The notes: generated by a model not told the origin, from the letters alone. Shown: positions 13,987-45,846, counted from the stretch's first letter. The stretch is DNA of 56,191 nucleotides from Planctomycetota bacterium (GCA_034190305.1 JAXHSV010000001.1:1-56191), one strand, 5' to 3'. A program made the numbers and translations.

Positions 13987-14793
13987 TTGACAAAAACTGT
14001 TTTTGCGGGTCTATTATTGCGACGAGAAAGGAGTTTCACCATCAATCAAACAGCACCGATAGACGCTGAAAAACCGTGTCCACGATGCAAGATGTCCAAC
14101 GCTCCGGACACCGAGTTCTGCGCCCACTGCGGCCTGCGGATGGGCCGGCACAAACCGGTGGCATGGTGGCATATCCACAGGAGACTCTATGACTGGACGG
14201 TGGGTTGGACGTATCGCCCGTCGTCGTCGGTTGCGCTGTTTGCGTTGAGTTTTTCCGAGAGCATAATTTTCCCCGTCCCCCCGGACGTTCTGCTGATACC
14301 GTTAGTATTGGGCAACCGCCGCAAGTGGCTGAAATACGCCGCTCTGTGCAGCATCGCCAGCGTAGCCGGCGCAGTGGCTGCCTTTCTTATAGGCTGGCTG
14401 GCGTGGTGGGCCGTCAAGGATTTCGCCTTCGAGTATCTGGGATGGACCGGATTGGCAGAGGACAACTTCGACACCATCTCGCTGTGGTTCGAACGGTGGA
14501 ATTTCTGGATTATTTTTGCAGCCGGTTTTACACCCCTTCCCTTCAAGGTGTTCAACATCTTCGCCGGCGTATTCGGCACCGGGCCTGAGGTGTCCAGCCC
14601 GGTAATTTTCTTCGTCCTTTTCCTTACAGCCGCCACCGTCAGCCGGACCGCAAGGTTCTTTCTGGTCGCAGGCCTGATGCGGGCCTTCGGTGCGAAGATG
14701 ACGCCGTTCATCGAGAAATATTTCAACTGGCTGTCGATAGCCTTTGCAGCCCTGCTTATCGGCGGGTTTGTAGTGGCGAAATACGCCTTTTGA
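13987..14793 (+). CDS. YqaA/DedA-like (VTT/SNARE-associated domain) membrane protein with an N-terminal zinc ribbon
   Basis: CPRCKMSNAPDTEFCAHCG zinc ribbon, then FSESIIFPVPPDVLLIPL typical of YqaA-type proteins. The start codon is uncertain (TTG at 13987). Confidence 0.65.
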   Translation: MTKTVFAGLLLRRERSFTINQTAPIDAEKPCPRCKMSNAPDTEFCAHCGLRMGRHKPVAWWHIHRRLYDWTVGWTYRPSSSVALFALSFSESIIFPVPPDVLLIPLVLGNRRKWLKYAALCSIASVAGAVAAFLIGWLAWWAVKDFAFEYLGWTGLAEDNFDTISLWFERWNFWIIFAAGFTPLPFKVFNIFAGVFGTGPEVSSPVIFFVLFLTAATVSRTARFFLVAGLMRAFGAKMTPFIEKYFNWLSIAFAALLIGGFVVAKYAF

Positions 14794-14804
14794 GTAAAAT
14801 GCGG
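14771..14804 (+). repeat. Direct repeat copy 1: functional 3' end of the YqaA-like gene (VVAKYAF-stop plus 11 nt)
   Basis: TAGTGGCGAAATACGCCTTTTGAGTAAAATGCGG, repeated at 15807-15841. Confidence 0.8.
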
Positions 14805-14936
14805 ATTAGACATCGATGGCGGAGGGATTTGTTACGAAATGCCTTATGGAAAAATCTCACGGTTTGAGAGAATATTATCTTGCGTTGACGAAAAAAAGAT
14901 GTACACTAAAGATGTCCAACTTAGCGGAGGCCGGTA

Positions 14937-15173
14937 ATGAAGGCTCTTAGTGTAAAAGAAATACGAACGCGCCTGAGCAAGGTAATTCACGAGGCCGAAT
15001 GCGGCGAATCGACCACAATCACCCGCTATGGGAAACCGGTGGCTCGAATTGTCCCGGCCGATACTCATCGCCCCGCTTTTCCGGACCTGTCGGAATTCCG
15101 CGCTTCGATCAAACCTCGCGGCAAGACCCTGACCGACACGCTCCGTGAAATGCGCGAGGAGGAACGGCTTTGA
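14937..15173 (+). CDS. Phd/YefM-family antitoxin
   Basis: MKALSVKEIRTRLSKVIHEAECGESTTITRYGKPVARIVP. GGAGG RBS. 4-nt overlap with the downstream PIN gene. Confidence 0.85.
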   Translation: MKALSVKEIRTRLSKVIHEAECGESTTITRYGKPVARIVPADTHRPAFPDLSEFRASIKPRGKTLTDTLREMREEERL

Positions 15174-15589
15174 GGGCGTATGTCGACACCAGTATATTAA
15201 CCGGAGCGTACTGCGCCGAGCCGGGCAGCGCACGCTCGCAGAAAGTGTTGCAGCGTTACATGCCTGTAATCTCCCGCCTGACGTGCCTGGAGTTCAGTTC
15301 CTCGGTGGCTAGGAAACTTCGCATGAAAACCTTCTCAAAAACCGAGGCGCTCAGGGTGATTCACCAGTTTCATTCTCACCTCCAACAGGACATCTTCGAA
15401 CTCAAGCCGGTTCAGGACATGCACCTGGTATTGGCCGGCGAATGGATCGACTTGTTTGCGACCGGACTGCGCCCGTTGGATGCAATGCACCTCGCGATTG
15501 CCCATTCCAATAAACTGCTACTGGTTACAGCCGACGTATCGCTTGCCAAGTCGGCCCGGCAACTCGGCGCAGCAGTGGAACGAATCTGA
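15170..15589 (+). CDS. vapC: VapC-type PIN-domain toxin
   Basis: YVDTSIL (first acidic residue), LDAMHLAIA and LVTADVSLAKSA. TTG start overlapping the antitoxin stop. Confidence 0.8.
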   Translation: MRAYVDTSILTGAYCAEPGSARSQKVLQRYMPVISRLTCLEFSSSVARKLRMKTFSKTEALRVIHQFHSHLQQDIFELKPVQDMHLVLAGEWIDLFATGLRPLDAMHLAIAHSNKLLLVTADVSLAKSARQLGAAVERI

Positions 15590-15687
15590 TCCGTCGTAGT
15601 AAAAAAATTGAGGTCTTTCCGGTCGGTGGGTTCGTAATAGTCTGTCAATCTTAAATCTGTGAACAAAATCTTCAGACGTCGGTTTTT

Positions 15688-15769
15688 CGACACAGAGACA
15701 CAGAGGAACAGAGACATAAAAACAGATTTGTCTTTTTTCTATTCTCTGAATCTCTGCGTCTCTGTGTCG
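15688..15769. repeat. Palindromic element, CAGAGA family (copy A1)
   Basis: Arms CGACACAGAGACACAGAGGAACAGAGA and TCTCTGAATCTCTGCGTCTCTGTGTCG around an AT-rich loop. Confidence 0.85.
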
Positions 15770-15806
15770 CATAATCCTGCTGACAAATTTGAAGTTAACG
15801 GAGTAA

Positions 15807-15841
15807 TAGTAGCCAAATATGCCTTTTGAGTAAAGTGCAGG
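15807..15841 (+). repeat. Direct repeat copy 2: orphan 3' end of the YqaA-like gene (VIVAKYAF-stop)
   Basis: TAGTAGCCAAATATGCCTTTTGAGTAAAGTGCAGG. Differs from copy 1 mostly at third codon positions. Confidence 0.8.
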
Positions 15842-15867: not shown

Positions 15868-17616
15868 TCACGACAGGCCGTTCGGCGATTTTTCTTCCTC
15901 GCCTTCGCTTTTCGGTTTTTCCTGCATGGGGTACTTCAGACGGACGTGGTACATTCCACAGAGGCTTTTGACCAGCGACGTTTCGATGGCGTGGACCTCC
16001 CGCAGCGTCAATTCGCAGTCGTCCAGTTGCCCGTCCATAAGGCGCTTGGAAATCACGAAGTGGACCTGCGTTTCGATTCGCCCGGCGGTTGGTTCCGGTG
16101 TGGCGCGGATGGATGATTCAGCCGCGTCGGCGAGCATGAGAATGGCTGCCTCTTTCATTCGCGGCTTGGGACCCGGATAGCGGAACTCGACTTCATCGGG
16201 CGCACTTTCGCCGTTATCGGCTCGCTGCTCGGCTGCGGCGTGGTAGAAATACTCCACCAGCGTCGTACCGTGGTGCGTGGCGATGAATTCCCGAAGTACC
16301 CTTGGCAGACCATACTGCCTGGCCATTTCAACGCCGTCCTTGACGTGTCCCTTGATTACCAGCAGGCTCATTGCCGGCGAAAGTTTCTCGTGGCGCGAGG
16401 CGGAACCGGCCTGGTTCTCCACGAAATAATCGGGCTTGTTGATTTTTCCGACATCGTGGTAGTAGGCGCCGACCCTCGCCAGCAGACCCCGAGCGCCAAT
16501 GGCCTCGGCGGCGGATTCGCACATCGCCCCCAGCACGAGCGAGTGATTATACGTCCCCGGCGCTTCCAGCGCCAGGCGCTTCAGCAGCGGTTTGTTGGCG
16601 TCGCACCATTCCAGCAGCGTCAGCGATGTGGCGACGGAGAATACCCGTTCAATCAGAGGCAGAATGCCCTGTGTGAGGAACCCGCCGGCGATAGCTGCCC
16701 CTGCGGCATAACAGCCGTCCACGAGAACAAATCGCCCCGGCATGCCGGCGGCGGATTCAACCAGCCAGACGGTAATGAACACCACCACCGCAACCACGCC
16801 GCCGGTCTCGATGAGTTTGCTTCGAGTCCGAACCTCGTGCAACTGGAAAACGATCGTCGCCGCGGCCGACCAGAGCACCAACAGTCCCCCCACTCCCAGA
16901 CGAACCTGCAAGGCCGTCAGGATCACCAGCGCACCGGTAACCGCGAAGGCGAAACGCTGGTCGTAGGCGATGGCGAGCATGGTGGCGGCTACGAATATCC
17001 CGAAAACCGACAGGTACGGATTCATGCTTCCTGCGCCGACGACCACCCGACTCAACAACAGCACCAGAAAGATCAGCATCACAATGGCCAGGCCCCGCCA
17101 GTGGTTCTTCACGATCCGCGGGCTGTACTTGGCGACATATAACCCCAGCATGGCAACGACGCCGGCGATAATTCCCGCCCTGCCAAGGAATATCCAGAAC
17201 CGCCTTAGGGGCGAATCGGCGTTTCGCTGTTGCAGGAATGCCACGTGTTCAGCAGACAGGATTGCCACCTGTGCCTCTTTCAGTCCACCGTCGGCGGTCC
17301 CGGTTACAAGGAGTCTTCCTTTAGGGATGCTCTGTCCGACCGGCTGGGTCGCAGGAATTGTGGTCGGTCTTTCAGCATCGGCAAAGTGGAATTCAACACG
17401 GGCGTATGCGTCACGGGGAAGGTATCCGCCGAGGCGGTAGGGCGCAGGCTCCAGCGGGCAGGCGTCCATTATCAGCGCCGCGACAAACAGACCCGTCGCC
17501 AATAAGACCGACCCGACACCGCCGGCGTCGCGGAACCGCTGCCATCGGCCGGGTCCGGCCGGGGCGATCTTGCGAATCTCCCGCCGCTGACGATTTTTCT
17601 TCTTAAAAGGCCACAT
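15868..17616 (-). CDS. pgpH: 7TM-HD membrane phosphohydrolase (PgpH/YqfF family, c-di-AMP phosphodiesterase-like)
   Basis: Multi-TM central region, then an HD domain (GAYYHDVGK, ATHHGTTL). Lies downstream of phoH, as in many bacteria. Confidence 0.8.
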   Translation of the reverse strand: MWPFKKKNRQRREIRKIAPAGPGRWQRFRDAGGVGSVLLATGLFVAALIMDACPLEPAPYRLGGYLPRDAYARVEFHFADAERPTTIPATQPVGQSIPKGRLLVTGTADGGLKEAQVAILSAEHVAFLQQRNADSPLRRFWIFLGRAGIIAGVVAMLGLYVAKYSPRIVKNHWRGLAIVMLIFLVLLLSRVVVGAGSMNPYLSVFGIFVAATMLAIAYDQRFAFAVTGALVILTALQVRLGVGGLLVLWSAAATIVFQLHEVRTRSKLIETGGVVAVVVFITVWLVESAAGMPGRFVLVDGCYAAGAAIAGGFLTQGILPLIERVFSVATSLTLLEWCDANKPLLKRLALEAPGTYNHSLVLGAMCESAAEAIGARGLLARVGAYYHDVGKINKPDYFVENQAGSASRHEKLSPAMSLLVIKGHVKDGVEMARQYGLPRVLREFIATHHGTTLVEYFYHAAAEQRADNGESAPDEVEFRYPGPKPRMKEAAILMLADAAESSIRATPEPTAGRIETQVHFVISKRLMDGQLDDCELTLREVHAIETSLVKSLCGMYHVRLKYPMQEKPKSEGEEEKSPNGLS

Positions 17617-17624: not shown

Positions 17625-17706
17625 AATAGTCAGTAATCGGTGGTTAGTAGTCAGATAAAAGATATTTTCTTCACCGGCTACCGGCTACCATCTACCGATT
17701 ACTATT
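17625..17706. repeat. Palindromic element, GGTAGTC/GGTAGCC heptad family (copy C1)
   Basis: Arms AATAGTCAGTAATCGGTGGTTAGTAGTCAG and CCGGCTACCGGCTACCATCTACCGATTACTATT. The right arm encodes the last codons and the stop of phoH. Confidence 0.75.
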
Positions 17707-18630
17707 TTCTCCATATGCATCAACGATATTCTGCACCAGGCGGTGGCGAACAATGTCATGCCTGTCCAGGCGAATGAAAATTAATCCTTTGATGCCTTTT
17801 AGTCGGCGTGCCGAGTCGATCAATCCGCTGGTGGTATTTTCGGGCAAGTCGATCTGCGAATCGTCGCCTGTAATAATCATTTTCGACCCGTGTCCCATAC
17901 GGGTCAAGAACATCAACATCTGCGCCGGTGTGGTGTTCTGGGCTTCATCGAGGATGATTACCGAATCATTGAGCGTTCTGCCCCGCATAAACGCCAGCGG
18001 AATGACCTCGATAATGTCGTTTGCCATGAATCTGCGGGACTGCTCGAAGTCCATCATGTCGTGCAGGGCGTCGAAGAGCGGACGGAGATAAGGGTTGACC
18101 TTTGCCTGCATATCACCCGGAAGGAAGCCGAGTTTTTCGCCGGCTTCAACCGCCGGACGGGCCAGCACCATGCGTTTGGCGCGTTCCGCCTTGAGCATGT
18201 GAACCGCCATTGCCACGGCGAGGTATGTCTTTCCGGTCCCCGCCGGTCCGGTGCAGAATACCATATCATGCTTTCTTATCGCCTCGACGTACCGCCTCTG
18301 CCCCGGCGAGCGCGGGTGAACGGCCTGGCCGTTATATACAGTGATGCTCTCGGACGTATCGGAAGAATCTACTCCCGCAGACACCTCGGCCAGAGCGTCG
18401 GCCACTTCCCTGGCGCCTATGGGCTTATTGTGTCTCATCCGCCGCTGAAGAGCCGCCAGAACCGCCGCAGCGCCGGAGACACCCCTGGCCGCTCCGGTTA
18501 TCCGAACAACCCCGCCGCGGGCGAACATCTGAACGCCCATCACATGGCGTATCGTCTTGAGATGTTCATCAGCCGGTCCGAACAGAACCGAAGACCGCTC
18601 CGGCTGCTCCAGTGTAACAGTTAGTTCCAA
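17692..18630 (-). CDS. phoH: PhoH-family ATPase
   Basis: GPAGTGKTYLAVAMAV Walker A and ILDEAQN Walker B. Start proposed at the TTG at 18630 (GGAG 7 nt upstream), because the longer ORF-track N-terminus (MLRISDFES) is a translated repeat element. Confidence 0.85.
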   Translation of the reverse strand: MELTVTLEQPERSSVLFGPADEHLKTIRHVMGVQMFARGGVVRITGAARGVSGAAAVLAALQRRMRHNKPIGAREVADALAEVSAGVDSSDTSESITVYNGQAVHPRSPGQRRYVEAIRKHDMVFCTGPAGTGKTYLAVAMAVHMLKAERAKRMVLARPAVEAGEKLGFLPGDMQAKVNPYLRPLFDALHDMMDFEQSRRFMANDIIEVIPLAFMRGRTLNDSVIILDEAQNTTPAQMLMFLTRMGHGSKMIITGDDSQIDLPENTTSGLIDSARRLKGIKGLIFIRLDRHDIVRHRLVQNIVDAYGENSNR

Positions 18631-22609: not shown

Positions 22610-24304
22610 ATGCCCATTCGCGGACTAGGCTTCCTGAGCCGGCAATATCGCCACATCAACCGATACCGTCAGATCGTATCTGTCCTGCTGAAGCACGGAT
22701 TCGGGGACCTGATGGGGACTCTGGGTCTGCATCGGCGCCTCGGCATGGACAAGCGCCGCGCAGACCGGCCCGAAGCGATTGTCACACAGACACTGACGCG
22801 GTGGCAGCGCGTGCGAATGGCAATGGAGGAACTCGGCCCGTCCTTCGTCAAGTTGGGGCAGATCGCTGCAACCCGTCCTGACATGATCCCGCAGGAACTG
22901 TGCAGCGAACTGGAAAAACTTCAGGATACGGTTCCACCCTTCGGCTTCAGCCAGGTCGGACAAACAGTAAAGGCCGAACTCGGCGATTCGCTCGAAGCGC
23001 TGTTCGAGCGGTTCGATCAAAAGCCCGTAGCGTCCGCATCCATCGCCCAGGTTCACCGCGCTGTCCTTCCCGGCGGCGAAGTGGTGGCTGTTAAAGTCCA
23101 GCGTCCCGAAATAGACCGGACAATTGCGGTTGACCTGGAGATTATGCTCGATCTGGCCGCTCTTATGGAAAAGCACATTCACGGACTCGATGCGGTAAAT
23201 CCGGTCGGGATAGTTCAGGAATTCGCTCGCACGATTCGCAAGGAACTGGACTTTACAATCGAGGCCGATCATATCGAGCGTTTCGCCCGGAATTTTAAAT
23301 CGAACGATAACGTGCACGTCCCGCGGGTCTTCCGTCGTTACTCGACCAGAAAAGTCCTGACGATGGAGTTTGTCGAGGGGGTTAAGGTTTCGGACCTTCC
23401 GGCTTTGCGCGAGGGCGGTTTTGACCTGGAGTTAATCGCCGGCAGAGGCGCCGATCTCGTCCTCGAACAGATATTCGTGCACGGGTTCTTTCACGCTGAT
23501 CCGCATCCGGGCAACATCCTCATCCTGCCCGACAACGTTATCTGCTTCCTCGATTACGGCATGATGGGGACCGTGAAGCCTCGCTACCGCCAAAGCCTCG
23601 CCGATCTGGTTGTAGGAATCGTCCGCCGCGACGAGAGCCAAATAACAAAGGCGGTTCTGAGTCTTTCGGAGAACGACAATCCCGAGACATACGAGAGGCT
23701 CGAAGCGGACGTGGACGATTTCATCGAGCAGCACTTTTATCGTCCGCTAAAGGACATCCACATGGGAAGCCTCATATCGCAGCTGGTTCAAATTCTGGTG
23801 CGCCACCGGTTAAGGATTATCCCGGATTTCTACCTTCTCACCAAGGCGTTGGCTATCGCCGAGGGAAACGGGCGCAAACTCTGGCCTGATTTCGATATGA
23901 TCAAAAATACCGAGCCGTTCGCCAGGAAAATCATGACTGAACGCCTCAGCCCCCGAACACTTGCGAAAGACCTTTATCGCTCCGGTATCGATATGGGAAA
24001 CCTTATGCGGGACCTGCCCGGCGACGTGAAGGAAATACTCGCCCAGATAAAGCGGGGGCGAATTCACGTCGAGTTCGAACACAGGGGTTTGGAACCGATG
24101 CTCAAGACGCACGACCAGATAAGCAACCGCATAGTATTCGCCATCGTCCTGGCGGCCATTGTTATCGCCTCGTCGGTTATTGTTCTTTCGGGTATTCCGC
24201 CGAAATGGTACGGCATTCCGGTCCTTGGAATTGTCGGATACCTCGCTGCCGGTGCGATGGGCTTCTGGCTGCTGATTTCAATCATCAGGCACGGGAAGAT
24301 GTGA
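22610..24304 (+). CDS. ABC1/UbiB-family atypical kinase
   Basis: LGPSFVKLGQIAATRPDMIP, ASIAQVHRA, VAVKVQRP, FFHADPHPGNI, and two C-terminal TM helices. Confidence 0.85.
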   Translation: MPIRGLGFLSRQYRHINRYRQIVSVLLKHGFGDLMGTLGLHRRLGMDKRRADRPEAIVTQTLTRWQRVRMAMEELGPSFVKLGQIAATRPDMIPQELCSELEKLQDTVPPFGFSQVGQTVKAELGDSLEALFERFDQKPVASASIAQVHRAVLPGGEVVAVKVQRPEIDRTIAVDLEIMLDLAALMEKHIHGLDAVNPVGIVQEFARTIRKELDFTIEADHIERFARNFKSNDNVHVPRVFRRYSTRKVLTMEFVEGVKVSDLPALREGGFDLELIAGRGADLVLEQIFVHGFFHADPHPGNILILPDNVICFLDYGMMGTVKPRYRQSLADLVVGIVRRDESQITKAVLSLSENDNPETYERLEADVDDFIEQHFYRPLKDIHMGSLISQLVQILVRHRLRIIPDFYLLTKALAIAEGNGRKLWPDFDMIKNTEPFARKIMTERLSPRTLAKDLYRSGIDMGNLMRDLPGDVKEILAQIKRGRIHVEFEHRGLEPMLKTHDQISNRIVFAIVLAAIVIASSVIVLSGIPPKWYGIPVLGIVGYLAAGAMGFWLLISIIRHGKM

Positions 24305-24307
24305 GCG
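24272..24307 (+). repeat. Direct repeat copy 1: functional 3' end of the ABC1-kinase gene (LISIIRHGKM-stop)
   Basis: CTGATTTCAATCATCAGGCACGGGAAGATGTGAGCG, repeated at 24876-24911 with one mismatch. Confidence 0.9.
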
Positions 24308-24429
24308 GGCCGACACCGGGCGCACTAGCCCTGCACAGGTCTTGTTTTACCCAATCGGTCGGTTTATCATAATAAAGAACAGTCGGTTAGCAGGGAAGCA
24401 ACAGTGGCTGTGGGGCAAGGAGTTTGGTG

Positions 24430-24642
24430 ATGGGATATCATATACCTGTATTGATTGAGCAGGATGAAGACGACGTTTTTATCGTTTCGGCGCCGACGCT
24501 TCGCGGCTGCCACAGTTACGGAGATACACTTGAAGAGGCCATGAAAAACATCGCTGAAGCGGTGATGCTTTGCCTGCAGGATGAAGTCCCTGATCAAAAC
24601 CGGCGGTTTGTCGGCGTGCGCGACCTGGAGGTAACGGTGTGA
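24430..24642 (+). CDS. hicB: HicB-family antitoxin
   Basis: YHIPVLIEQDEDDVFIVSAPTLRGCHSYGDTLEEAMKNIAEAV (UPF0150/HicB N-domain). AAGGAG RBS. Confidence 0.8.
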   Translation: MGYHIPVLIEQDEDDVFIVSAPTLRGCHSYGDTLEEAMKNIAEAVMLCLQDEVPDQNRRFVGVRDLEVTV

Positions 24643-24866
24643 CGACCGTGCCGGTCATCCCAGCACGCAGGCTTATCCGGGTCTTGGCCAAGTTGGGCTT
24701 CGAGGAAATTCGCTGTCGCGGCTCTCATCATCGGTTTGCTCATCCGGATGGTCGAAAAACTACTGTGCCGGTTCATCAGGGGCGGGAAATTCCCCGCGGG
24801 CTGCTGCGAAAAATTGTTACTGTCGATCTGGGCATGGATATGAAAGAATTTGTTTCGATGCTGTAG
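24639..24866 (+). CDS. hicA: HicA-family mRNA interferase toxin
   Basis: ARRLIRVLAKLGFEEIRCRGSHHRFAHPDGRKTTVPVHQGREIPRGLLRKI. GTGA start/stop overlap with hicB. Confidence 0.85.
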   Translation: MTTVPVIPARRLIRVLAKLGFEEIRCRGSHHRFAHPDGRKTTVPVHQGREIPRGLLRKIVTVDLGMDMKEFVSML

Positions 24867-24875
24867 GTGTTTCTT

Positions 24876-24911
24876 CTGATTTCAATTATCAGGCACGGGA
24901 AGATGTGAGCG
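24876..24911 (+). repeat. Direct repeat copy 2: orphan 3' end of the ABC1-kinase gene
   Basis: CTGATTTCAATTATCAGGCACGGGAAGATGTGAGCG. Begins 10 nt after the hicA stop and still reads LISIIRHGKM-stop. Confidence 0.9.
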
Positions 24912-24929
24912 AACCGGCTGCCGAGGCGA

Positions 24930-25649
24930 TTACATCATCGCTACGACGACATTGTAGCAGGCATGAGCGCCGACGGCGACACCGAAGCCGCGACCGATAT
25001 AGACTATCGCCAGGTAGGCCCCGGCAATTCCGCGAAACACAAACAGGCGCCAGTCGAAATCGGCTGGGCCTATGAAATGATATAAACTGAACAGCACCGA
25101 AGCGGAAACGACGGCCACCACTGCGGTGGGCTTCCTGGCTGCCTTCAGCAGGTCCACAAAAAGCAGCATAATCAGGCCGATAGCCGCCAGGCGGAAGATG
25201 AACTCCTCGTATATTCCCGCCCCTATTCCCGTGAGTATTTCAGCGGCCAGTGCCTGGTCCCCCGCCCCGGCTGCCAGAGCCTCAGGAGCAATCAGCCTGT
25301 CGGTCAGAAACGCCAGGGCGACCAGCGGCGCCATCCCGACGACGCTTTCGGCAAACATTCCCGCTACGGCGTCGGCATCGACGTGCCGCTTTTCCCGGCT
25401 GGCGATGTGCCATGCCAGAAGGACGACGACAATCAACGCCGCCGGAAGAAACCTCGCCGCGGCCCCGAGACTATTGAGCACAACAGCAAGATGCCGAGGA
25501 GCCAGCAGGCAATCGCTGTAAAAAATGGACCCGACCTCATAGGCCACAAGGAGAGGAAGAATGAACATCAGGCAGTTGAGCGGGCGATGGGTCCGCCTCA
25601 GGTATTCCGACGCGGCTTTACTGAATCGGCTTTTTTTCTTCGAAGCCAT
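24930..25649 (-). CDS. CPBP-family intramembrane metalloprotease (CAAX protease-like)
   Basis: EEFIFRLAAIG, SVLFSLYHF and HACYNVVV motifs. Start taken at MASKKK, because the longer N-terminus runs into a repeat element. Confidence 0.75.
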   Translation of the reverse strand: MASKKKSRFSKAASEYLRRTHRPLNCLMFILPLLVAYEVGSIFYSDCLLAPRHLAVVLNSLGAAARFLPAALIVVVLLAWHIASREKRHVDADAVAGMFAESVVGMAPLVALAFLTDRLIAPEALAAGAGDQALAAEILTGIGAGIYEEFIFRLAAIGLIMLLFVDLLKAARKPTAVVAVVSASVLFSLYHFIGPADFDWRLFVFRGIAGAYLAIVYIGRGFGVAVGAHACYNVVVAMM

Positions 25650-25671
25650 ACCGGCAAACTGACATACAAGA

Positions 25672-25787
25672 GGCCACAGAGACGCAGAGAGCGCAGAGAT
25701 TAACAAGACAAAAGAAACAAAATAACGCAGGGATTTTTGATTCTATCTAACTTATTTGTTCTCTGCGCTCTCTGTGCCTCTGCGGCC
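25672..25787. repeat. Palindromic element, CAGAGA family (copy A2)
   Basis: Arms GGCCACAGAGACGCAGAGAGCGCAGAGA and TCTCTGCGCTCTCTGTGCCTCTGCGGCC. Confidence 0.85.
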
Positions 25788-39347: not shown

Positions 39348-40538
39348 CTACAGCCTCGGCACATCTGTGTCTTTTCCGCCATTTTCTGCAGAGAGATATG
39401 CGGCGTAGATAGTCGCTATCGTATCCAGCGCCAATTCAAGCCCTGCCTGTGGGGCTGAACCTGTGGCTGCACATGAAATGAAATCCTGCATCTCGGCGTG
39501 GTACCCGAGTGTGAAATTCTCATCAGGCACAGCCGGGGACCAGCCTTCCTTGGTGCTTATCTTCTCGATGGTGTAGATGTCCTCGTACTGGTCGCCTCGC
39601 GGGTTGAACGTATCGACCAGGTTTGTCGGGCTGATCCGGCAGAGCGTTCGGTGATTGTTGGCGAAGACCTCGACGTAATCGGTCAGCCCGCCGAGGGACA
39701 GTTCGCTGGCGATAACGTCGGCTATCGTGCCGTCATCAAAGACCACGTGCATTATGCCGTAGTCCTCGATGTCGTGATAATCGGTGCGGATAAATCCGGC
39801 GTCGCGATATCCGGGCAATCGTGTTATTTCGTGGACGCGGGCGCTGACACTCGCCGGCCTGATGGGTTTGCCGTTTCGCGCCAAGCCTTCGGCTTCTTTC
39901 AGATACAGCACGCCGCCGAGCGGGTGACAGGCCTTGCCCATCAGCGCCCCGCCGCCGGCGAACCGCCAGATACCATATACCGGCGAACCGGAACCGTTGT
40001 GCGACTCCTCCCCGACCATCCGAAGTATCTGCGCACCGGTCTTTTCGACGATCTCGCGCTCCTTCTGAATGCTGGGGGCATAGACGTAATTCTCGGCATA
40101 CCCAAGAACGACGTTATTATCCCGCACAGCCTCTGCGATGCGCTTAAGACGCTCGATAATCTCATTGAGCATCTTTTTCTTGTCAGCCTTGTTGCCAAAG
40201 AATTCATCCCCCGCGCCCGCCGGCCCGAAGCAACCCGTCAGCGGCTTTTCACAAATAATCCCGACACCTGCCGAGGCGGCTGCGAGGATTCCCTCTTCGT
40301 GAACGTATGGCGGCGAACAGATGTCCAAAACATCGATTTGCTCGAGCATCGCGTTGATGTTTTCATAGACAGGAATATCGTGCTCAGCACCGAACGCCTG
40401 CCGGCTCTCTGCCCGAAGTGACGTAACACCCGCCAATTCGACGTCGAACCCATAAACCCGCCGCAATGATTCGACATGAAAACTCGCAGCAAAGCCCGCA
40501 CCGACTATACCGACTCGCACCTTTTTAACTGTAGTCAT
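39348..40538 (-). CDS. Gfo/Idh/MocA-family oxidoreductase
   Basis: VRVGIVGAGFAASFH Rossmann N-terminus, ICEKPL motif. Confidence 0.8.
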   Translation of the reverse strand: MTTVKKVRVGIVGAGFAASFHVESLRRVYGFDVELAGVTSLRAESRQAFGAEHDIPVYENINAMLEQIDVLDICSPPYVHEEGILAAASAGVGIICEKPLTGCFGPAGAGDEFFGNKADKKKMLNEIIERLKRIAEAVRDNNVVLGYAENYVYAPSIQKEREIVEKTGAQILRMVGEESHNGSGSPVYGIWRFAGGGALMGKACHPLGGVLYLKEAEGLARNGKPIRPASVSARVHEITRLPGYRDAGFIRTDYHDIEDYGIMHVVFDDGTIADVIASELSLGGLTDYVEVFANNHRTLCRISPTNLVDTFNPRGDQYEDIYTIEKISTKEGWSPAVPDENFTLGYHAEMQDFISCAATGSAPQAGLELALDTIATIYAAYLSAENGGKDTDVPRL

Positions 40539-40668: not shown

Positions 40669-40756
40669 TTACTCTTCCTGAATATGTTTTCACGACATAA
40701 GGAATGTGATATTCCAGAGGATATCGGCTGGGGGGGGGCTTTTTGATGTTATTTGC
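40669..40756 (-). repeat. Orphan, decayed copy of the 3' end of the MBL/RNase Z-like gene (direct repeat of 44983-45066)
   Basis: Reads PADILWNITFLMS-stop-KHIQEE-stop, against PADIRQRVTFLMSWKHIQDE-stop in the intact gene. Contains a G9 run at 40730-40738. Confidence 0.8.
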
Positions 40757-40861
40757 TTGCCGCAAACTGATCGCCGAACAGGATCGCCCTTGACCTCCGA
40801 TTGATAAACCCATAGCGTTAATGTGCCGTATCCTTGTAACGTTTGTGCGAAAGAACGGACT

Positions 40862-42118
40862 ATGACTCCAAACCAGTCCATGTTGTGGACCGACCGGCTG
40901 CGGAACATAATGCCATGGGGGTCCAGCACGATTTCAAAGGCTCCGAAATTTGCGCCCGACGAGCCGGGCGCAATCGTTCGCGGTAAGGGTTGTCGGGTCT
41001 GGGACGCCGACGGGCGGGAGTACATCGATTTCCGCAACGCCCTGGGTCCTGTAACATTGGGATATTGCTTCGACGCCGTTAACGAAGCGATCCGTGAGCA
41101 GATGGTCAACGGGATTGTCTTCGGCCAGCCGCACCCCATCGAGTGCCTGGTGGCGGAGATGCTGTGTGAGGTGATTCCGTGCGCGGAGCAGGCAAGATTC
41201 CTCAAGACCGGCGGCGAGGCGCTCGCCGCTTGCATCCGCCTGGCGCGACACCACACGGGACGCGAGCATGTGATACAGATCGGATACAACGGCTGGCTGA
41301 ACAGCCTGTCCGCTGCAGGGGCGGTGCTCCCCGGCCGCATTGGGCCAGCAGCGCCGGCAGGTGTGCCCGAATCGCTCTGTATGCTTCACCATGCCTGCCG
41401 GTGGAACGACCTCTCGCAGATGCAGGCGATTTTCGACAGGTACGACGACCAGATCGCCGCCGTGGTCATTGCGGCGGACTACTCCAAAATGGAAGATGGG
41501 CGGACGTTCTATCCGGCTGTGCGCGAGTTAACGCGGCGGAACGGAACCGTGTTGATCTTCGACGAGATCGTAACGGGATTTCGGATCGCCATTGGGGGAG
41601 TTCAGGAGTACTTCGGCGTCAGCCCGGACATGGCGGTCTTTGCCAAGGGCATGGCCAACGGAATGCCGATATCTGTCTATGTCGGCAGGCGGGAATTAAT
41701 GCAGGATTTCGGAGATGTAATAGTATCTTCGACGTATGGTGGCGAAACGTTGTCGCTAGCCGCCGCCGAGGCTGCAATCCGGACTTATAGAGATCAGGAT
41801 GTGGTGGGACACCTTTGGCGGCAGGGCAGAAGGCTGGTTACAGAGGCGAACAGCCTGTTTGAACAATATGCCTTGGGCATCCGCCTGGAAGGCATGGCCC
41901 CTTGCCCGATTTTCGTCTTTGAAGCAGAAACCGGCAAAACTGATACCGACCGGCTGCAAGATGTTTTCTTTCGCGCCTCGTATCGGCACGGCCTGAGTTT
42001 CTACAACGTCTCCTATGTTAACTTCAGCCACCGTGATGAGGACATCACAGAGGCGATGGATCGGCTTGACGCCGCCTGTGGAGAAATTGCTTCGGAGGGG
42101 GCCGACGGATGCGGGTGA
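40862..42118 (+). CDS. Class-III (GSA-aminomutase-like) PLP aminotransferase
   Basis: GKGCRVWDADGREYIDF, LIFDEIVTGFR, FAKGMANG (PLP-Lys). Start at MTPNQ. Confidence 0.8.
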   Translation: MTPNQSMLWTDRLRNIMPWGSSTISKAPKFAPDEPGAIVRGKGCRVWDADGREYIDFRNALGPVTLGYCFDAVNEAIREQMVNGIVFGQPHPIECLVAEMLCEVIPCAEQARFLKTGGEALAACIRLARHHTGREHVIQIGYNGWLNSLSAAGAVLPGRIGPAAPAGVPESLCMLHHACRWNDLSQMQAIFDRYDDQIAAVVIAADYSKMEDGRTFYPAVRELTRRNGTVLIFDEIVTGFRIAIGGVQEYFGVSPDMAVFAKGMANGMPISVYVGRRELMQDFGDVIVSSTYGGETLSLAAAEAAIRTYRDQDVVGHLWRQGRRLVTEANSLFEQYALGIRLEGMAPCPIFVFEAETGKTDTDRLQDVFFRASYRHGLSFYNVSYVNFSHRDEDITEAMDRLDAACGEIASEGADGCG

Positions 42119-42146
42119 AAAGAGCGTTAATCTTTTCCAATAGCGA

Positions 42147-42911
42147 ATGAGAATTCCTAAAGACATTATCGACGTGCATACTCATATCTGGAGCGATGCC
42201 ACAGGAATGCACGTACGTCCGGGCGAGGAAGAAGCGATCATCGCCATGTCCGATTGTTACGGCATCAATGCTATGGTGGTAATGCCTTTGTGCGGGTCGC
42301 ATCGGCCGACGGCAGAGCAAGTCCGAGCGAGCAACGATGCGGTTGCATCCTTTGCCGAAAAGGACAGGCGGGTCCGACCATTTGGCCAGATCGATCCTCG
42401 GCACGGATCTGTAGCCCTCCAGGAAATTCGTCGCTGCGTGGAAGAGTTGGGCCTGGTCGGATTCAAGGTGTGGGTTGCATTGGCGGACGCACCCGATATG
42501 TACCCGCTCATTGAGCGGATGATCCACTATGACAGGCCCGTCCTGATACACGCGATGCACAAGACTGTGGGGCAGTATCCGTCCGAGAGCGACCCTGTAA
42601 ACGTGGCAAATCTTGCCGGACGATATCCTGAAGCCACCATTATCATGGCGCATATGGGCGGTGATTTCATCTATGGTTGTAACGCCATCGCCGACCTGCC
42701 CAATATCCTGACCGACCCCAGCGGCACTTACTGTGAGACGGGGATGTTGGAATGGGCGGTGGGTGTGCTGGGTGCGGATCGAATCCTCTTCGGCAGCGAT
42801 GCGCCGGGCGCCGACTTCGTGAACAATCTAGCCAAGGTAATGGCGGCGGACATTACCGATCAGGATAAGCGCAAGATCATGTACACCAATGCCAAGAGGC
42901 TTCTGGGATGA
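42147..42911 (+). CDS. Amidohydrolase_2 (PF04909-like) TIM-barrel metal hydrolase
   Basis: IIDVHTHIW HxH motif, IMAHMGG, FGSDAP. Confidence 0.75.
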   Translation: MRIPKDIIDVHTHIWSDATGMHVRPGEEEAIIAMSDCYGINAMVVMPLCGSHRPTAEQVRASNDAVASFAEKDRRVRPFGQIDPRHGSVALQEIRRCVEELGLVGFKVWVALADAPDMYPLIERMIHYDRPVLIHAMHKTVGQYPSESDPVNVANLAGRYPEATIIMAHMGGDFIYGCNAIADLPNILTDPSGTYCETGMLEWAVGVLGADRILFGSDAPGADFVNNLAKVMAADITDQDKRKIMYTNAKRLLG

Positions 42912-43687
42912 ACGAAGCGATGTCTATCACGGACGTATCTGCCTGGGTCGGCGCGTATCCGTTCCGCGGAATCCATCGCAGTTCGTTCGACGACCTGGAG
43001 GCAAAAGCCGAGGAACTGGGTATAGGCCGAATCGTAGTAAGTTCGTTTGAAAACCTGTTTTGGGAAAATAATCTCGACGGATTTAACCTGTGGTGGCAGA
43101 GGCTCACGGGCCGGAACCGATTCGAGCACTGGCCGGTTATCAACCCGGCAATGCCCGGGCAGATTAAGCGTTTGAAAGAACTAATCGAGGAGGCGCAACC
43201 TCGCGGCCTGCGACTCCTGCCGAATTACCACGGATATCAGCTTTCCGACCCGTGTCTCGAAAACCTGATGGGTTTGGTAAAGGACCACGGCCTCGTCGTA
43301 CAGGTGTTTCAACGCATCGCCGATGAGCGATGGCATTGGATGCTGCATACGCCGGCGGTCGAGGACTCTGATATTGTCTCTTTCGTCAGGAATTATCCCG
43401 AGCATCACATCTTGATCAGCGCGATGAACCAACCGAATATCCTGGTGGAGTACCTAGCTGATTGCCCGCACCTGTACGTTGATGTTTCGCGGGTACGTGG
43501 GCCGGTCTTTGCCGTCGAACAGATGCTTGGGAACCTTCCGGCAAACAAGGTTGTTTTCGGCTCGCTCTGGCCGGTACAGATAATCGAAGCGACCCTCTGG
43601 CAGGTTCAGGAAGCACGCATATCCGAGAAGACCCGAAAGGCCGTGCTGCACGAGAACTTTGAGGCGCTTGTGGGATCAGAGGCGTGA
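42908..43687 (+). CDS. Amidohydrolase_2-like protein lacking the N-terminal HxH
   Basis: ITDVSAWVGAYPFRG in place of HxH, C-terminal VFGSLWP. ATGA overlap with the upstream gene. Confidence 0.6.
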   Translation: MNEAMSITDVSAWVGAYPFRGIHRSSFDDLEAKAEELGIGRIVVSSFENLFWENNLDGFNLWWQRLTGRNRFEHWPVINPAMPGQIKRLKELIEEAQPRGLRLLPNYHGYQLSDPCLENLMGLVKDHGLVVQVFQRIADERWHWMLHTPAVEDSDIVSFVRNYPEHHILISAMNQPNILVEYLADCPHLYVDVSRVRGPVFAVEQMLGNLPANKVVFGSLWPVQIIEATLWQVQEARISEKTRKAVLHENFEALVGSEA

Positions 43688-44961
43688 GCAAGTCGGGCGT
43701 AATGCAAACTGATATTCTGGACGCGAAAGTAAGGTTCGTCAGTCAACATTTCGTCAATCCGCTGGTACTCAGTACCGGCTCGATTTCGGAACTTACCGAG
43801 GCCCGTGTTGAAGTGACTGTTCGCGCAGGTGGGCGCGAGGCGACCGGTCGCGGCTCAATATATCTTTCTGACCTATGGGCGTGGCCGGATGCGGCGCTCT
43901 CGCATGAGCATCGCGATGCGGCGCTCAGGCGGTTATGCAAGCGGATTGCCGGCGATCTGCCTGCGCTTTGCGGAGGTCAAGCGGCTCATCCGACGGAATT
44001 GGGCCTGAGGCTGCATGAAAACGTCTGCGACGAGCCTGCACCACCCGCCCTGGCCAGGGCAATGTGCGCCAGCCCGTTCGACGCGGCAATTCATGATGCG
44101 GTCGGCATCGCCTTGAATAAGTCGGCATTCGAGTTTTACAAAGACTCGACCCCACTTCCCAGCGCCGACCGATATTTCGCCCATAGGGATGCCTGTGATG
44201 CAATTGCTCGAACTATTCGCTCGCCCAGACGCACGCTACGAGCGTGGTATATTGTGGGCAAGAATGACTCAATGGAAAAGGACGTCGCTCCGTGGGTCCG
44301 CAACCGTGGCTACCGCTGTTTCAAGATCAAGGTTCTCGGCAGGGATAACGCCTTCGACGTTGCCAGGACGGTGGAGGTCTTTCGGACGGTCAAGGACCTT
44401 GGGGCCAGGAATCCCTGGCTGTCCGTGGATGCCAATGAGGCAAACCCCGACGCGGACAGCGTGCTTGATTACCTGAAGCGGCTGAAGGCCACTGATGCTG
44501 AGGCTTTTGCGGCGCTGCAAAATCTTGAGCAGCCGACCGGCCGGGACATAGCGGTGCACCGATTTGATTGGCGCGAGGTTACCAAACTCAAGCCGGTAAT
44601 GCTGGACGAAGGCCTGACCGGCTTGGACCTGATGGAAGAGGCGGCTGGACAGGGTTGGAGCGGCTTTGCGCTCAAGACGTGCAAAGGTCACAGCGTCGCA
44701 CTCGTCGCAGCCGCATGGGCCAAAGAGCGAGGGCTGCTCGTCTCATTGCAGGACCTGACCAACCCGGGTCTGTCGCTGATTCACGCGGCATTGTTCGCGG
44801 CATACGTACCCATGATTAATGACGTTGAACTGAACTCGCCGCAGTTCACGCCGGCGGCCAACGCAGATTGGCTCCCCAGGCTCAGCGGTCTGTTTGAGCC
44901 GACCGGTGGAGTGCATCGCCTGCCGGAGAAGGTCCCGCCTGGTCTCGGATCGATACTGTAA
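43684..44961 (+). CDS. Enolase-superfamily (mandelate racemase / muconate lactonizing enzyme-like) protein
   Basis: FKIKV (KxK), VDANE, LEQP, MLDE and ALKTCK spacing typical of the MR/MLE metal ligands and general-base Lys. GTGA overlap with the upstream gene. Confidence 0.7.
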   Translation: MSKSGVMQTDILDAKVRFVSQHFVNPLVLSTGSISELTEARVEVTVRAGGREATGRGSIYLSDLWAWPDAALSHEHRDAALRRLCKRIAGDLPALCGGQAAHPTELGLRLHENVCDEPAPPALARAMCASPFDAAIHDAVGIALNKSAFEFYKDSTPLPSADRYFAHRDACDAIARTIRSPRRTLRAWYIVGKNDSMEKDVAPWVRNRGYRCFKIKVLGRDNAFDVARTVEVFRTVKDLGARNPWLSVDANEANPDADSVLDYLKRLKATDAEAFAALQNLEQPTGRDIAVHRFDWREVTKLKPVMLDEGLTGLDLMEEAAGQGWSGFALKTCKGHSVALVAAAWAKERGLLVSLQDLTNPGLSLIHAALFAAYVPMINDVELNSPQFTPAANADWLPRLSGLFEPTGGVHRLPEKVPPGLGSIL

Positions 44962-44982
44962 GCGCAGTCGGCAATTGCAGAC

Positions 44983-45846
44983 TCACTCATCCTGAATATG
45001 TTTCCACGACATGAGGAATGTAACTCTCTGGCGGATGTCGGCTGGCAGTGTCTTTTTGAGGATTTTTCGGGCCTCGGCCAGGTTTGTCCGGCGGGTTACG
45101 TGGGTCAGGACGATCCGCTCGTTATTCATCCCTTCGAGGACTTCTGCCAGGTCGTTTATGTGCAGGTGTCTGCCCGCGCGAGCCCGGCTGATGTGGTCGT
45201 CGTCAAAGAAGGTGCACTCAATAAGCAGCACCCTTGCGTCGCGGACGTGTGGGATGGCGGAGTAATTGGCCCTGGCTGTATCGCCCAGATAAGTTACCAG
45301 CGGAATCTCGACGCTGCGGGTGATCTCGACGCCTTTTTTCTTCAGTTCCACCAGTTCAGGCCCGTCCAGGCCGATGAATTCATCCTTGAGTTTATGGCGG
45401 ACGTCGATAAGCGCAAAACCAAGCGAGTTTCCGATATGCCGCGTTGCGAAGGCCCGCGCGATCAGGCCGCGACGGATTTCATAATCGTCGCCGTCCCCCA
45501 TTCCTACGAACTTGTGCGGCGAGGGATGTCCTTCGACCCGCGCGACCGCGTCCATCAGGTTCTCCAGCGGTCCGACGATGGAATGGGCTACAAGCGCGAC
45601 CCCGCCGGTGATGCCCTGAAAATCCCGCTGGCTGAAGTAATAAGCGATACCGGCTGCATGGTCCATGTGCCCGTGGCTAAGCAGGACGTGGTTGACTCGC
45701 AGCGCCTCGCGCGGGCATCGGCCGATGTCGAAAACCACGTCCAGTTCGGGAACCACGATGACTGACTCCTCCCCGGCGACGCTGTAACCGGCAAGAGTGA
45801 AGTCGTCGAATTCCATGCAACTGAGTTTGAATGCTTGCCTTTTCAT
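44983..45846 (-). CDS. MBL-fold metallo-hydrolase, RNase Z/BN-like
   Basis: VLLSHGHMDHAAG (HxHxDH), THVTRR C-terminal motif. Confidence 0.75.
   Translation of the reverse strand: MKRQAFKLSCMEFDDFTLAGYSVAGEESVIVVPELDVVFDIGRCPREALRVNHVLLSHGHMDHAAGIAYYFSQRDFQGITGGVALVAHSIVGPLENLMDAVARVEGHPSPHKFVGMGDGDDYEIRRGLIARAFATRHIGNSLGFALIDVRHKLKDEFIGLDGPELVELKKKGVEITRSVEIPLVTYLGDTARANYSAIPHVRDARVLLIECTFFDDDHISRARAGRHLHINDLAEVLEGMNNERIVLTHVTRRTNLAEARKILKKTLPADIRQRVTFLMSWKHIQDE

What the first reader, a model, noticed from the sequence alone, without database searches (positions are those of the whole stretch)
14771..45066. Recurrent recombinase-less insertion mode: cargo placed exactly behind a stop codon with duplication of the host gene end
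Three independent loci (14771/15807, 24272/24876, 40669/44983) share one layout. It runs: intact gene end, then cargo, then an orphan copy of the same gene end (34-88 nt, always including the stop codon), then the next host gene. None of the cargoes encodes an integrase, transposase or relaxase, and no tRNA is used as a target. Classical islands duplicate tRNA 3' ends through a tyrosine integrase carried on the island. Here the targets are protein-gene 3' ends and the machinery is not within this window. Possible explanations are a trans-acting recombinase elsewhere in the genome, cassette exchange by homologous recombination using the gene end as an anchor, or an undescribed mechanism.
Basis: partly seen in the sequence, partly recalled or inferred. 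Interest (0 to 1): 0.8.

Follow-up and report, generated by a model that had tools for sequence, protein, structure and literature searches.

The report
Orphaned gene ends flanking swapped-in cargo
At three places in this Planctomycetota chromosome piece, foreign genes (two toxin-antitoxin pairs and a four-gene metabolic operon) sit just behind a host gene's stop codon, followed by a leftover copy of that gene's end; this most likely marks cargo exchanged between related genomes by recombination inside the gene end, a pattern already described in other bacteria.

Summary
Three direct-repeat pairs (32, about 44 and 61-84 nt; 82-91% identical) each consist of an intact gene end, cargo, and an orphan copy that includes the stop codon. 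No shuffle of the window produced such repeats.

Related Planctomycetota genomes have an empty site at all three loci. In each case the orphan is collinear with the ancestral downstream spacer, so these are real insertions. The same spots carry different cargo in other relatives, so they are hot spots. No integrase, transposase or relaxase is encoded anywhere in the window. The cargo ends have no terminal inverted repeats, and the three repeats share no motif.

The Phd-VapC cassette is 90-91% identical between lineages whose housekeeping genes are only 75-86% identical. In relative L086, the flanking gene has a sister-like body but a window-type last ~48 nt. This shows that gene end plus cargo segments move between lineages and are joined inside the 3' end of the coding sequence.

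Best explanation (about 0.5): flank-anchored import with one illegitimate joint, which displaces the resident gene end. The layout matches 'insertion with long target duplication' (Kobayashi group, restriction-modification systems) and 3'-end displacement in Rhs/T6SS loci. It is a new member of a known kind, and the mechanism is still unproven.

The parts
13987..14793 (+). Host gene 1: membrane protein with an N-terminal zinc ribbon; ortholog of the DedA/VTT-domain gene in relatives
   Evidence: Pfam Zn_ribbon_3. Aligns at 60-70% nt with the VTT_dom genes of L086 and L089.
14771..14802 (+). Locus 1, intact copy of the gene end (last 23 nt of CDS + 9 nt). Diverged spacer homology continues to about 14825.
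   Evidence: 48/49 identical to the gene end of L086.
14826..15604 (+). Cargo 1 core: Phd/YefM antitoxin (14937-15173) and PIN/VapC toxin (15170-15589) with its own upstream region. A discrete cassette with the same ends in three genomes.
   Evidence: Pfam. 90-91% nt identical to L086, L087 and L088. 83% identical to L106, where it sits in a phage tail module.
15605..15806 (+). Filler between cassette and orphan. Contains a CACAGAGA-unit hairpin (15683-15774).
   Evidence: Absent from L086 and L087.
15807..15838 (+). Locus 1, orphan copy of the gene end. Collinear with the ancestral spacer that leads to the HD-7TM stop codon.
   Evidence: alignment with empty site L089.
15868..17616 (-). Next host gene at locus 1: 7TM receptor with HD hydrolase domain (PgpH-like). 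Convergent with host gene 1.
   Evidence: Pfam. Orthologs.
22610..24304 (+). Host gene 2: UbiB/ABC1 atypical kinase
   Evidence: Pfam. Orthologs L001-L008.
24269..24312 (+). Locus 2, intact copy (last 36 nt of ubiB + 8 nt)
   Evidence: Aligns to the single copy at L002 2129-2174.
24313..24872 (+). Cargo 2: HicB-like antitoxin (24424-24642) and HicA toxin (24639-24866)
   Evidence: Pfam. 24341-24585 is 85% nt identical to L003 2492-2736, at the same hot spot.
24873..24916 (+). Locus 2, orphan copy. Continuous with the ancestral spacer and the stop codon of the CAAX protease gene.
   Evidence: Window 24873-25100 aligns without a break to L002 2129-2356.
24930..25706 (-). Next host gene at locus 2: Rce1-like CAAX protease. 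Convergent with ubiB.
   Evidence: Pfam.
44983..45846 (-). Host gene 3: MBL-fold hydrolase
   Evidence: Pfam. Orthologs up to 92% identical.
44985..45067 (-). Locus 3, intact copy of the gene end (ends at the stop codon)
40755..44982 (+). Cargo 3: four-gene operon on the opposite strand. Class-III aminotransferase 40823-42118, amidohydrolase_2 42147-42911 and 42908-43687, enolase-superfamily protein 43684-44961.
   Evidence: Pfam. Absent from L082-L085.
40671..40754 (-). Locus 3, orphan copy. Decayed: in-frame premature stop, TAA terminal stop. Collinear with the ancestral MBL-GFO spacer.
   Evidence: Window 40754-40401 aligns to L082 10750-11089.
39348..40538 (-). Next host gene at locus 3: GFO/IDH/MocA oxidoreductase
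   Evidence: Pfam. Directly follows MBL in L082-L084.

Best explanation
These are scars of recombination-driven cargo exchange at intergenic hot spots, not the work of an element-encoded recombinase.

Proposed sequence of events:
1. DNA arrives from a diverged relative, or from a phage. It carries the 3' part of a conserved host gene followed by different downstream cargo.
2. It pairs with the resident gene, which acts as the homologous anchor.
3. Its other end is joined illegitimately, at microhomology.
4. When that second joint falls a few tens of nt upstream of the resident stop codon, the resident's last 25-85 nt are pushed downstream as an orphan. The incoming copy completes the gene.
5. 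Only events that leave the host gene intact survive selection. Homology between diverged genomes also stops at the end of the coding sequence. Together these explain why cargo always appears 'exactly behind the stop codon' and why the orphan always includes it.
6. Toxin-antitoxin cargo then resists loss by addiction.

A linear fragment (homology-facilitated illegitimate recombination) and a circularised fragment integrating by a single crossover (Campbell type) would give the same product. I cannot tell them apart here.

Shown: the insertions relative to empty sites; the hot spots; horizontal exchange of the cassette; a mosaic gene end in relative L086.

Inferred: that the window's own intact copies were imported, and which enzymes were involved.
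For: (1) Empty sites exist for all three loci. In each, the orphan (not the intact copy) continues into the ancestral downstream DNA: L002 for locus 2, L082/L083/L084 for locus 3, L089 for locus 1.

(2) The same spots hold other cargo in relatives.
- ubiB|caax spot: a hicB-like unit in L001; three hicAB units plus a type IIG restriction-modification gene in L003; a PEP-CTERM protein in L005.
- MBL|GFO spot: a SLFN/AlbA_2 gene in L085.
- HD-7TM spot: extra units in L086 and L087.

(3) The outcome at the far joint varies, as expected for an illegitimate join. There are duplications of 32-84 nt in the window and 25 nt of the other convergent gene's end in L001. L005 has no duplication. In L086 and L085 spacer DNA is deleted or replaced.

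(4) The Phd-VapC cassette is 90-91% nt identical between the window and L086/L087. Six flanking housekeeping genes are only 75-86% identical. The cassette was therefore exchanged horizontally, yet it landed at the same spot.

(5) Mosaic gene: the L086 DedA/VTT gene is mostly 80-98% identical to L089 over its body. Its last ~35 nt of CDS plus 13 nt after the stop are 48/49 identical to the window's intact copy. The window's gene body is only 60-70% identical to L086. The switch lies in a 6-nt stretch shared by all three (window 14760-14765), which is 6-11 nt from the 5' edge of the window's repeat.

(6) There is no recombinase gene in the cargo or the window. The cargo ends have no terminal inverted repeats, and the three repeats share no motif.

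(7) Published precedents describe the same geometry and propose the same mechanism (PMC5361080; PMC2853133).
Against: No donor was identified.

ubiB and the MBL gene show no detectable mosaic near their 3' ends, because those ends are conserved in all relatives.

In the window itself, both copies at locus 1 are of the same 'window type' allele. Import of the intact copy is therefore inferred, not shown.

Anchors that are only 75-88% identical are poor substrates for RecA.

The L086 switch sits at a 6-nt microhomology rather than inside long homology.

Nothing is known here about natural transformation or other DNA uptake in this lineage.

The four-gene cargo of locus 3 was not found as a unit, or next to an MBL gene, in any other sequence.
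Confidence: 0.5

Rival explanations
1. True insertion with a long target-site duplication. A staggered double-strand break leaves overhangs of 25-85 nt near the gene end. Foreign DNA is captured and both overhangs are filled in. The two copies start out identical and the orphan then decays. This is the reading the Kobayashi group gave for restriction-modification genes.
For: Both copies align to a single copy in the empty-site relatives. This is the published operational criterion (PMC2853133). The lengths are variable and above 30 bp. No mobility genes are present. The locus 3 orphan carries a premature stop and looks like a decaying pseudo-end. Divergence between copies (9-18%) is in the range expected for old events.
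Against: It does not predict the L086 mosaic gene end. It does not predict re-use of the same spots by different cargo, or the same cassette recurring at the same spot in lineages that diverged earlier than the cassette did. Outcomes at the same spots without any duplication (L005, L085, L086) need a second mechanism. The cargo here encodes no nuclease that could make the break; the published proposal relied on restriction enzymes.
Confidence: 0.2
2. Site-specific integration by a recombinase acting in trans. The cargo units would be integrase-less satellites (like cis-mobilisable elements), or remnants of islands that lost their integrase. Their attachment site would mimic a host gene's 3' end, as tRNA-targeting islands do.
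For: The layout is that of attL-cargo-attR with a gene-restoring repeat. The Phd-VapC cassette has the same sharp ends in three genomes. The L086 switch point lies within 6-11 nt of the 5' edge of the window's repeat, as a fixed crossover site would. A copy of the cassette sits in a phage tail module.
Against: The three repeats and their edges share no sequence motif, so three different specificities would be needed. Repeat lengths differ, as do the outcomes at one and the same spot. No integrase is present in 56 kb of the window or in the relatives' cargo. Exact-match scans for the three gene-end sequences found nothing in the viral contig collection. L087 and L106 carry the cassette without any gene-end repeat.
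Confidence: 0.12
3. No insertion mechanism at all: chance similarity, local tandem duplication, or a chimeric metagenome assembly.
For: The contig comes from a metagenome-assembled genome. The locus 1 repeat is short (28/32).
Against: 0 of 20 shuffles gave such repeats. The cargo is unrelated to the neighbouring DNA and is absent from the empty-site relatives. Independent Logan assemblies reproduce locus 2 and orphan 1 exactly. The two copies differ from each other, so they are not collapsed or duplicated reads.
Confidence: 0.03

Closest known systems
'Insertion with long target duplication' of restriction-modification genes (Nobusato et al. 2000, Gene 259:99; Furuta, Abe & Kobayashi 2010, NAR, PMC2853133)
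   Same: Cargo under 20 kb with no mobility genes. It is flanked by direct repeats longer than 30 bp and of variable length. Both repeats align to one copy in a related genome that lacks the insert. The published H. influenzae cases have 46-bp repeats overlapping the 3' end of a gene. The mechanism is unproven there too.
   Different: The cargo here is toxin-antitoxin pairs and a metabolic operon, not restriction-modification genes, so the proposed break by the cargo's own nuclease does not apply. The repeats here are more diverged (82-91%, against about 95-100% in most published cases). The host is a Planctomycetota MAG. The comparative data here point to allelic exchange rather than transposition-like insertion.
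3'-end (C-terminal) displacement with orphan arrays in Rhs, CDI and T6SS effector-immunity loci, proposed to arise by homology-facilitated illegitimate recombination (Kirchberger et al. 2017, PMC5361080; Jackson et al. 2009 as cited there)
   Same: An incoming module is anchored by homology in a conserved upstream gene. The resident 3' end and what follows it are shifted downstream as orphans. Repeated events stack cargo. No recombinase is involved.
   Different: In those loci the displaced 3' ends encode variable toxin domains and the orphans are long and often functional. Here the gene ends are conserved housekeeping sequence, the orphans are 25-85 nt scars, and the cargo is unrelated to the anchor gene.
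Genomic islands and prophages that integrate into the 3' end of a tRNA or protein gene via a tyrosine integrase and carry a replacement gene end
   Same: Intact gene end, cargo, then a direct-repeat copy of the gene end. The gene is kept intact.
   Different: There is no integrase, no conserved attachment core and no tRNA target. Cargo is as small as 0.56 kb.
Integron gene cassettes, which often carry toxin-antitoxin genes in chromosomal arrays
   Same: Small promoter-bearing or promoterless units, often TA pairs, stacked at one place (for example L003).
   Different: No intI gene and no shared attC-like imperfect palindrome at cassette ends. Integron insertion does not duplicate host gene ends.

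Membership tests
Insertion with long target duplication (Furuta et al. 2010 criteria) | Direct repeats longer than 30 bp flanking the insert | tested here: met
   32, about 44 and 61-84 nt.
Insertion with long target duplication (Furuta et al. 2010 criteria) | Both repeats align to a single copy in a related genome that lacks the insert | tested here: met
   L089 (locus 1), L002 (locus 2), L082-L084 (locus 3). The relatives are different species (75-88% nt identity), not strains of one species as in the original screen.
Insertion with long target duplication (Furuta et al. 2010 criteria) | Insert under 20 kb with no linked mobility genes | tested here: met
   Inserts of 0.56, 1.0 and 4.2 kb. 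Pfam finds no integrase or transposase in the cargo or the window.
Insertion with long target duplication (Furuta et al. 2010 criteria) | Insert contains restriction and modification genes | tested here: not met
   Cargo is Phd-VapC, HicBA and a metabolic operon. A type IIG RM gene does sit at the ubiB hot spot in relative L003.
Homology-facilitated illegitimate recombination / 3'-end displacement | Displaced resident 3' end lies downstream of the new cargo and is collinear with the old downstream DNA | tested here: met
   True at all three loci.
Homology-facilitated illegitimate recombination / 3'-end displacement | The gene end next to the cargo has a different history from the gene body (mosaic gene) | tested here: inconclusive
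   Met in relative L086 at the locus 1 site: 48/49 identity to the window type against 60-70% for the body. Not detectable in the window's own three genes.
Homology-facilitated illegitimate recombination / 3'-end displacement | Microhomology at the illegitimate joint | tested here: inconclusive
   The L086 switch lies in a 6-nt stretch shared by all three sequences. The donor sequence beyond the window's cargo|orphan joints is unknown.
Homology-facilitated illegitimate recombination / 3'-end displacement | DNA uptake and RecA-dependent strand invasion in this organism | not testable with these tools
   Needs the whole genome and experiments.
Integrase-mediated island / integrase-less cis-mobilisable element | Tyrosine or serine recombinase gene on or next to the element | tested here: not met
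   None in the cargo or in the 56-kb window. The rest of the genome was not available.
Integrase-mediated island / integrase-less cis-mobilisable element | Conserved attachment core shared by sites used by one recombinase | tested here: not met
   No motif is shared by the three repeats or their edges.
DNA transposon / MITE | Terminal inverted repeats and a short fixed-length target duplication | tested here: not met
   Best inverted match between cargo ends is within the shuffled range. Duplications are long and variable.
Integron cassette | attC site at the cassette end and an intI/attI platform | tested here: inconclusive
   No intI in the window. No palindrome shared by the cassette ends. 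No dedicated attC model was available.

The most novel reading that the evidence does not exclude
A dedicated machinery encoded elsewhere in these Planctomycetota genomes inserts small defence or addiction cassettes just behind stop codons. It would make long, variable staggered cuts, comparable in outcome to Cas1-type integration that duplicates a about 30-bp repeat. That would give true 25-85-bp target duplications and defined cassette ends.
Probability: 0.1. Interest if true: 0.8.

Novelty: new member of a known kind. Interest (0 to 1): 0.4.

Why it matters
The finding shows, in a little-studied phylum and at three loci on one contig, how addiction and defence cassettes and even a metabolic operon can enter core chromosomal regions without any mobile-element machinery. 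It also shows that short orphan gene ends can serve as markers of such events.

The L086 mosaic, together with a cassette that is more conserved than the core genes, gives sequence-level support for a recombinational origin of 'insertion with long target duplication'. The mechanism of that phenomenon has been left open since 2000.

Practically, orphan 3' ends could be used to map hot spots of gene flux in metagenome-assembled genomes.

Tried and rejected
- Sliding-window identity along ubiB, to look for a recombination breakpoint near its 3' end. No clear shift: the end is conserved in all relatives.
- Search for the locus 3 cargo as a unit elsewhere. Enolase-like homologs in JGI metagenomes (77% identity at most) are not linked to the other cargo genes or to an MBL gene.
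- Search for strain-level presence/absence polymorphism by exact-protein look-up. Only Logan contigs identical to the window were found. One of them breaks inside a repeated hairpin, which is not evidence of polymorphism.
- Phage attachment-site idea. The three gene-end sequences and close relatives of VapC and HicA were not found in IMG/VR viral contigs.
- Terminal inverted repeats at cargo ends: none above the shuffled background.
- A ~70-nt element at cargo edges in L001 and L005 was tested as a shared boundary motif. It is absent from the window, so I treat it as an unrelated dispersed repeat.
- The third 61% 'copy' of the locus 2 repeat, inside hicA (24760-24803), was judged to be chance.
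- A crude scan of about 1 Mb of unrelated taxa gave orphan-like hits at about 1% of gene ends and gene starts alike, mostly dispersed repeats. The gene caller was too rough for a rate comparison.
- Rfam: only the two tRNAs matched.

Full report
**1. The observation**

The window is a whole 56,191-nt contig of a Planctomycetota metagenome-assembled genome. The VapC protein is recorded on a contig of exactly this length, and the closest relatives are cold-seep Planctomycetales MAGs.

Local alignment fixes their extent:
- Locus 1: 14771-14802 / 15807-15838, 28/32 identical.
- Locus 2: 24269-24312 / 24873-24916, 91% over 44 nt.
- Locus 3: 40671-40754 / 44985-45067, 82% over the ungapped 61 nt and weaker out to 84 nt.

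Each pair contains the stop codon of a flanking gene. Twenty shuffles of the window gave no repeat of this kind. Among 53 crudely called genes, the only non-paralogous copies of gene segments were 3' ends, plus one dispersed hairpin element.

Two independent Logan assemblies are identical to the window across locus 2 and across the locus 1 orphan. The layout is therefore real.

**2. The parts**

Locus 1:
- Host gene: a zinc-ribbon/DedA-VTT-like membrane protein (+).
- Cargo: a Phd/YefM-VapC pair.
- Next host gene: a convergent HD-7TM (PgpH-like) gene.

Locus 2:
- Host gene: UbiB (+).
- Cargo: HicB-HicA.
- Next host gene: a convergent CAAX protease gene.

Locus 3:
- Host gene: an MBL-fold hydrolase (-).
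- Cargo: a four-gene operon on the other strand (aminotransferase III, two amidohydrolase_2, one enolase-superfamily protein).
- Next host gene: a GFO/IDH/MocA oxidoreductase (-).

The rest of the window is housekeeping: PheT, PhoH, CdsA, UppS, PurA, Frr, PyrH, RpsB, GroEL, NrdR and IMPDH. There is no integrase, transposase or relaxase. The two tRNA genes are not at any junction. The cargo ends have no terminal inverted repeats, and the three repeats share no motif.

**3. The cargo units are insertions and the sites are hot spots**

Related genomes provide an empty site for every locus.

- Locus 2: in L002, the ubiB stop is followed after 27 nt by the CAAX gene stop. Window 24873-25100 (orphan plus downstream) aligns to this region without a break. 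The intact copy aligns to the same L002 bases.
- Locus 3: in L082, L083 and L084, MBL is followed after 75-117 nt by the oxidoreductase gene. Window 40754-40401 (orphan plus spacer) is collinear with that.
- Locus 1: in L089, the HD-7TM stop is followed after 57 nt by the stop of the membrane-protein gene. The window's orphan and spacer again line up with it.

So in all three cases the orphan is the copy attached to the old downstream DNA, and the intact copy abuts the cargo.

The same spots hold other cargo in other relatives:
- Behind ubiB: a hicB-like unit in L001; three hicAB units and a type IIG restriction-modification gene in L003; a PEP-CTERM protein in L005.
- Behind MBL: a Schlafen/AlbA_2 gene in L085.
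- At the HD-7TM spot: extra small genes in L086 and L087.

L001 gives a fourth example of the layout. This time the last 25 nt of the other convergent gene (the CAAX protease) are duplicated around the cargo. L005, L085 and L086 show insertions at the same spots with no duplication, or with loss of spacer.

**4. Evidence on mechanism**

(a) The 779-nt Phd-VapC cassette (window 14826-15604) has the same sharp ends in the window, L086 and L087/L088, but different DNA abuts it in each. It is 90-91% identical between these genomes. Six neighbouring housekeeping genes are only 75-86% identical. The cassette has therefore moved between lineages after they diverged, and it landed at the same spot each time. 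A copy that is 83% identical sits beside a phage major-tail gene in L106, with no flanking repeat. Phages are thus one possible vehicle.

(b) The membrane-protein gene of L086 is mostly 80-98% identical to that of its sister L089. Its last ~35 coding nt plus 13 nt after the stop are 48/49 identical to the window's intact copy. The window's gene body is only 60-70% identical to either, and L086 against L089 falls to 65% over that stretch. The switch lies within six bases shared by all three sequences (window 14760-14765). That is 6-11 nt from the 5' edge of the window's repeat. This is direct evidence that a gene-end segment is transferred between lineages at this site and joined inside the 3' end of the coding sequence at a microhomology.

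(c) The outcome at the distal joint varies: duplication, nothing, or deletion. That is what an illegitimate join predicts.

(d) 'Exactly behind the stop codon' needs no special targeting. Between genomes this diverged, homology ends where the coding sequence ends, and selection removes any event that truncates the host gene.

**5. Best explanation and rivals**

Best explanation (about 0.5): cargo is swapped in by recombination anchored in a conserved flanking gene, with an illegitimate second joint. The resident gene end is displaced as an orphan whenever that joint falls upstream of the stop codon. A circularised fragment integrating by one crossover would give the same product.

Weak points:
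- No donor is known.
- ubiB and MBL show no mosaic, because their ends are conserved everywhere.
- The two locus 1 copies in the window are the same allele type.
- Anchors of 75-88% identity are poor RecA substrates.
- Nothing is known about DNA uptake in this lineage.

Rival A (0.2): a true long target duplication from a staggered break and fill-in. It fits the alignment criterion and the decayed locus 3 orphan. It does not predict the mosaic, the hot spots or the horizontally exchanged cassette.

Rival B (0.12): a recombinase acting in trans on gene-end mimicking sites. It fits the sharp cassette ends and the near-coincidence of the L086 switch with the repeat edge. However, there is no shared core, no recombinase in sight, variable repeat lengths and outcomes, and no match of the gene ends in viral contigs.

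Rival C (0.03): chance or artefact. It is excluded by the shuffles, the empty sites and the independent assemblies.

**6. Comparison with what is known**

The structure meets the published operational definition of 'insertion with long target duplication', apart from the nature of the cargo. That definition requires repeats over 30 bp, variable length, no mobility genes, and both repeats aligning to one copy in a genome without the insert. It includes cases that overlap gene 3' ends (PMC2853133). The authors left the mechanism open and suggested double-strand breakage.

The geometry and the proposed mechanism also match 3'-end displacement with orphan arrays in T6SS/Rhs loci, which is attributed to homology-facilitated illegitimate recombination (PMC5361080).

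It is not a member of the integrase-island, transposon or integron families, because their defining features were looked for and not found.

**7. Verdict**

Novelty: a new member of a known kind, with toxin-antitoxin and metabolic cargo, in Planctomycetota. The added value is sequence-level support for a recombinational origin.

Interest: 0.4. The most novel reading still open is a dedicated long-stagger integration machinery, at about 0.1 probability.

Noticed in passing
window 15683-15774, 25668-25791, 27730-27860, 31038-31113 (CACAGAGA units); 26873-26961 (CACAAAGA); 18656-18816 and 25918-26084 (CGAAATY); 19747-19841 and 40620-40670 (AAATGNY); 30586-30648, 17628-17658, 26210-26240 (GTAGTCRGTA): Nearly every intergenic spacer holds a long imperfect hairpin (40-160 nt) built from a periodic 7-8-nt unit, with several different unit types. 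None matches Rfam. Relatives have their own unit types (for example CGCGAAT in L084). They could be terminators or a dispersed repeat class. One of them lies between the locus 1 cassette and its orphan.
   Followed up: partly
L074 15495-15557 / 16461-16523 and 18135-18218 / 16385-16468: In an unrelated Bacteroidota MAG, two convergent genes X and Y each have an orphan 3'-segment copy between them, in the order X | cargo1 | Y' X' | cargo2 | Y. The X' copy stops 12 nt short of X's present stop codon and has its own alternative ending. This order is what joining two alleles with different cargo by one homologous and one illegitimate event would produce.
   Followed up: partly
L106 2012-2738: A Phd-VapC cassette 83% nt identical to the window's sits as a moron next to a phage major-tail and tail-completion gene block in a JGI metagenome contig. 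It has no flanking duplication.
   Followed up: partly
L003 1969-6750: Behind the ubiB stop codon, this relative stacks three HicA/HicB units (one truncated and 85% nt identical to the window's hicB) and an 1133-aa Eco57I/MmeI-like type IIG restriction-modification gene.
   Followed up: partly
L001 3208-3279, L005 1606-1675, L003 7494-7549: A ~70-nt partly palindromic element (GTAACCGCTCCTTTGCAATCGCGGCTCGTAGGGCACAT...) lies at cargo edges in three relatives. It is absent from the window.
   Followed up: partly
window 6976-8043 and 8187-9227: Tandem paralogous genes (355 and 346 aa, 70-75% nt identical over most of their length) with no Pfam match.
   Followed up: no
window 10836-11291 (-) and 51910-52350 (+): Short ORFs that match only the N-terminal third of a sulfatase and part of a GH43 glycosidase. 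These are probably gene remnants.
   Followed up: no
window 22077-22103, 32861-32887, 53478-53504: The same GC-rich hairpin (GCCCAGCCATT..AATGGCTGGGC) occurs three times downstream of genes. It looks like a terminator.
   Followed up: no
L084 5840-5900: The MBL ortholog has lost the usual stop codon and reads six more codons into a CGCGAAT-unit repeat.
   Followed up: no
L086 10300-10965: Two adjacent 108-aa genes with no Pfam match are inserted between the Phd cassette and the membrane-protein gene end. The PIN gene of that cassette carries a 230-nt deletion.
   Followed up: partly
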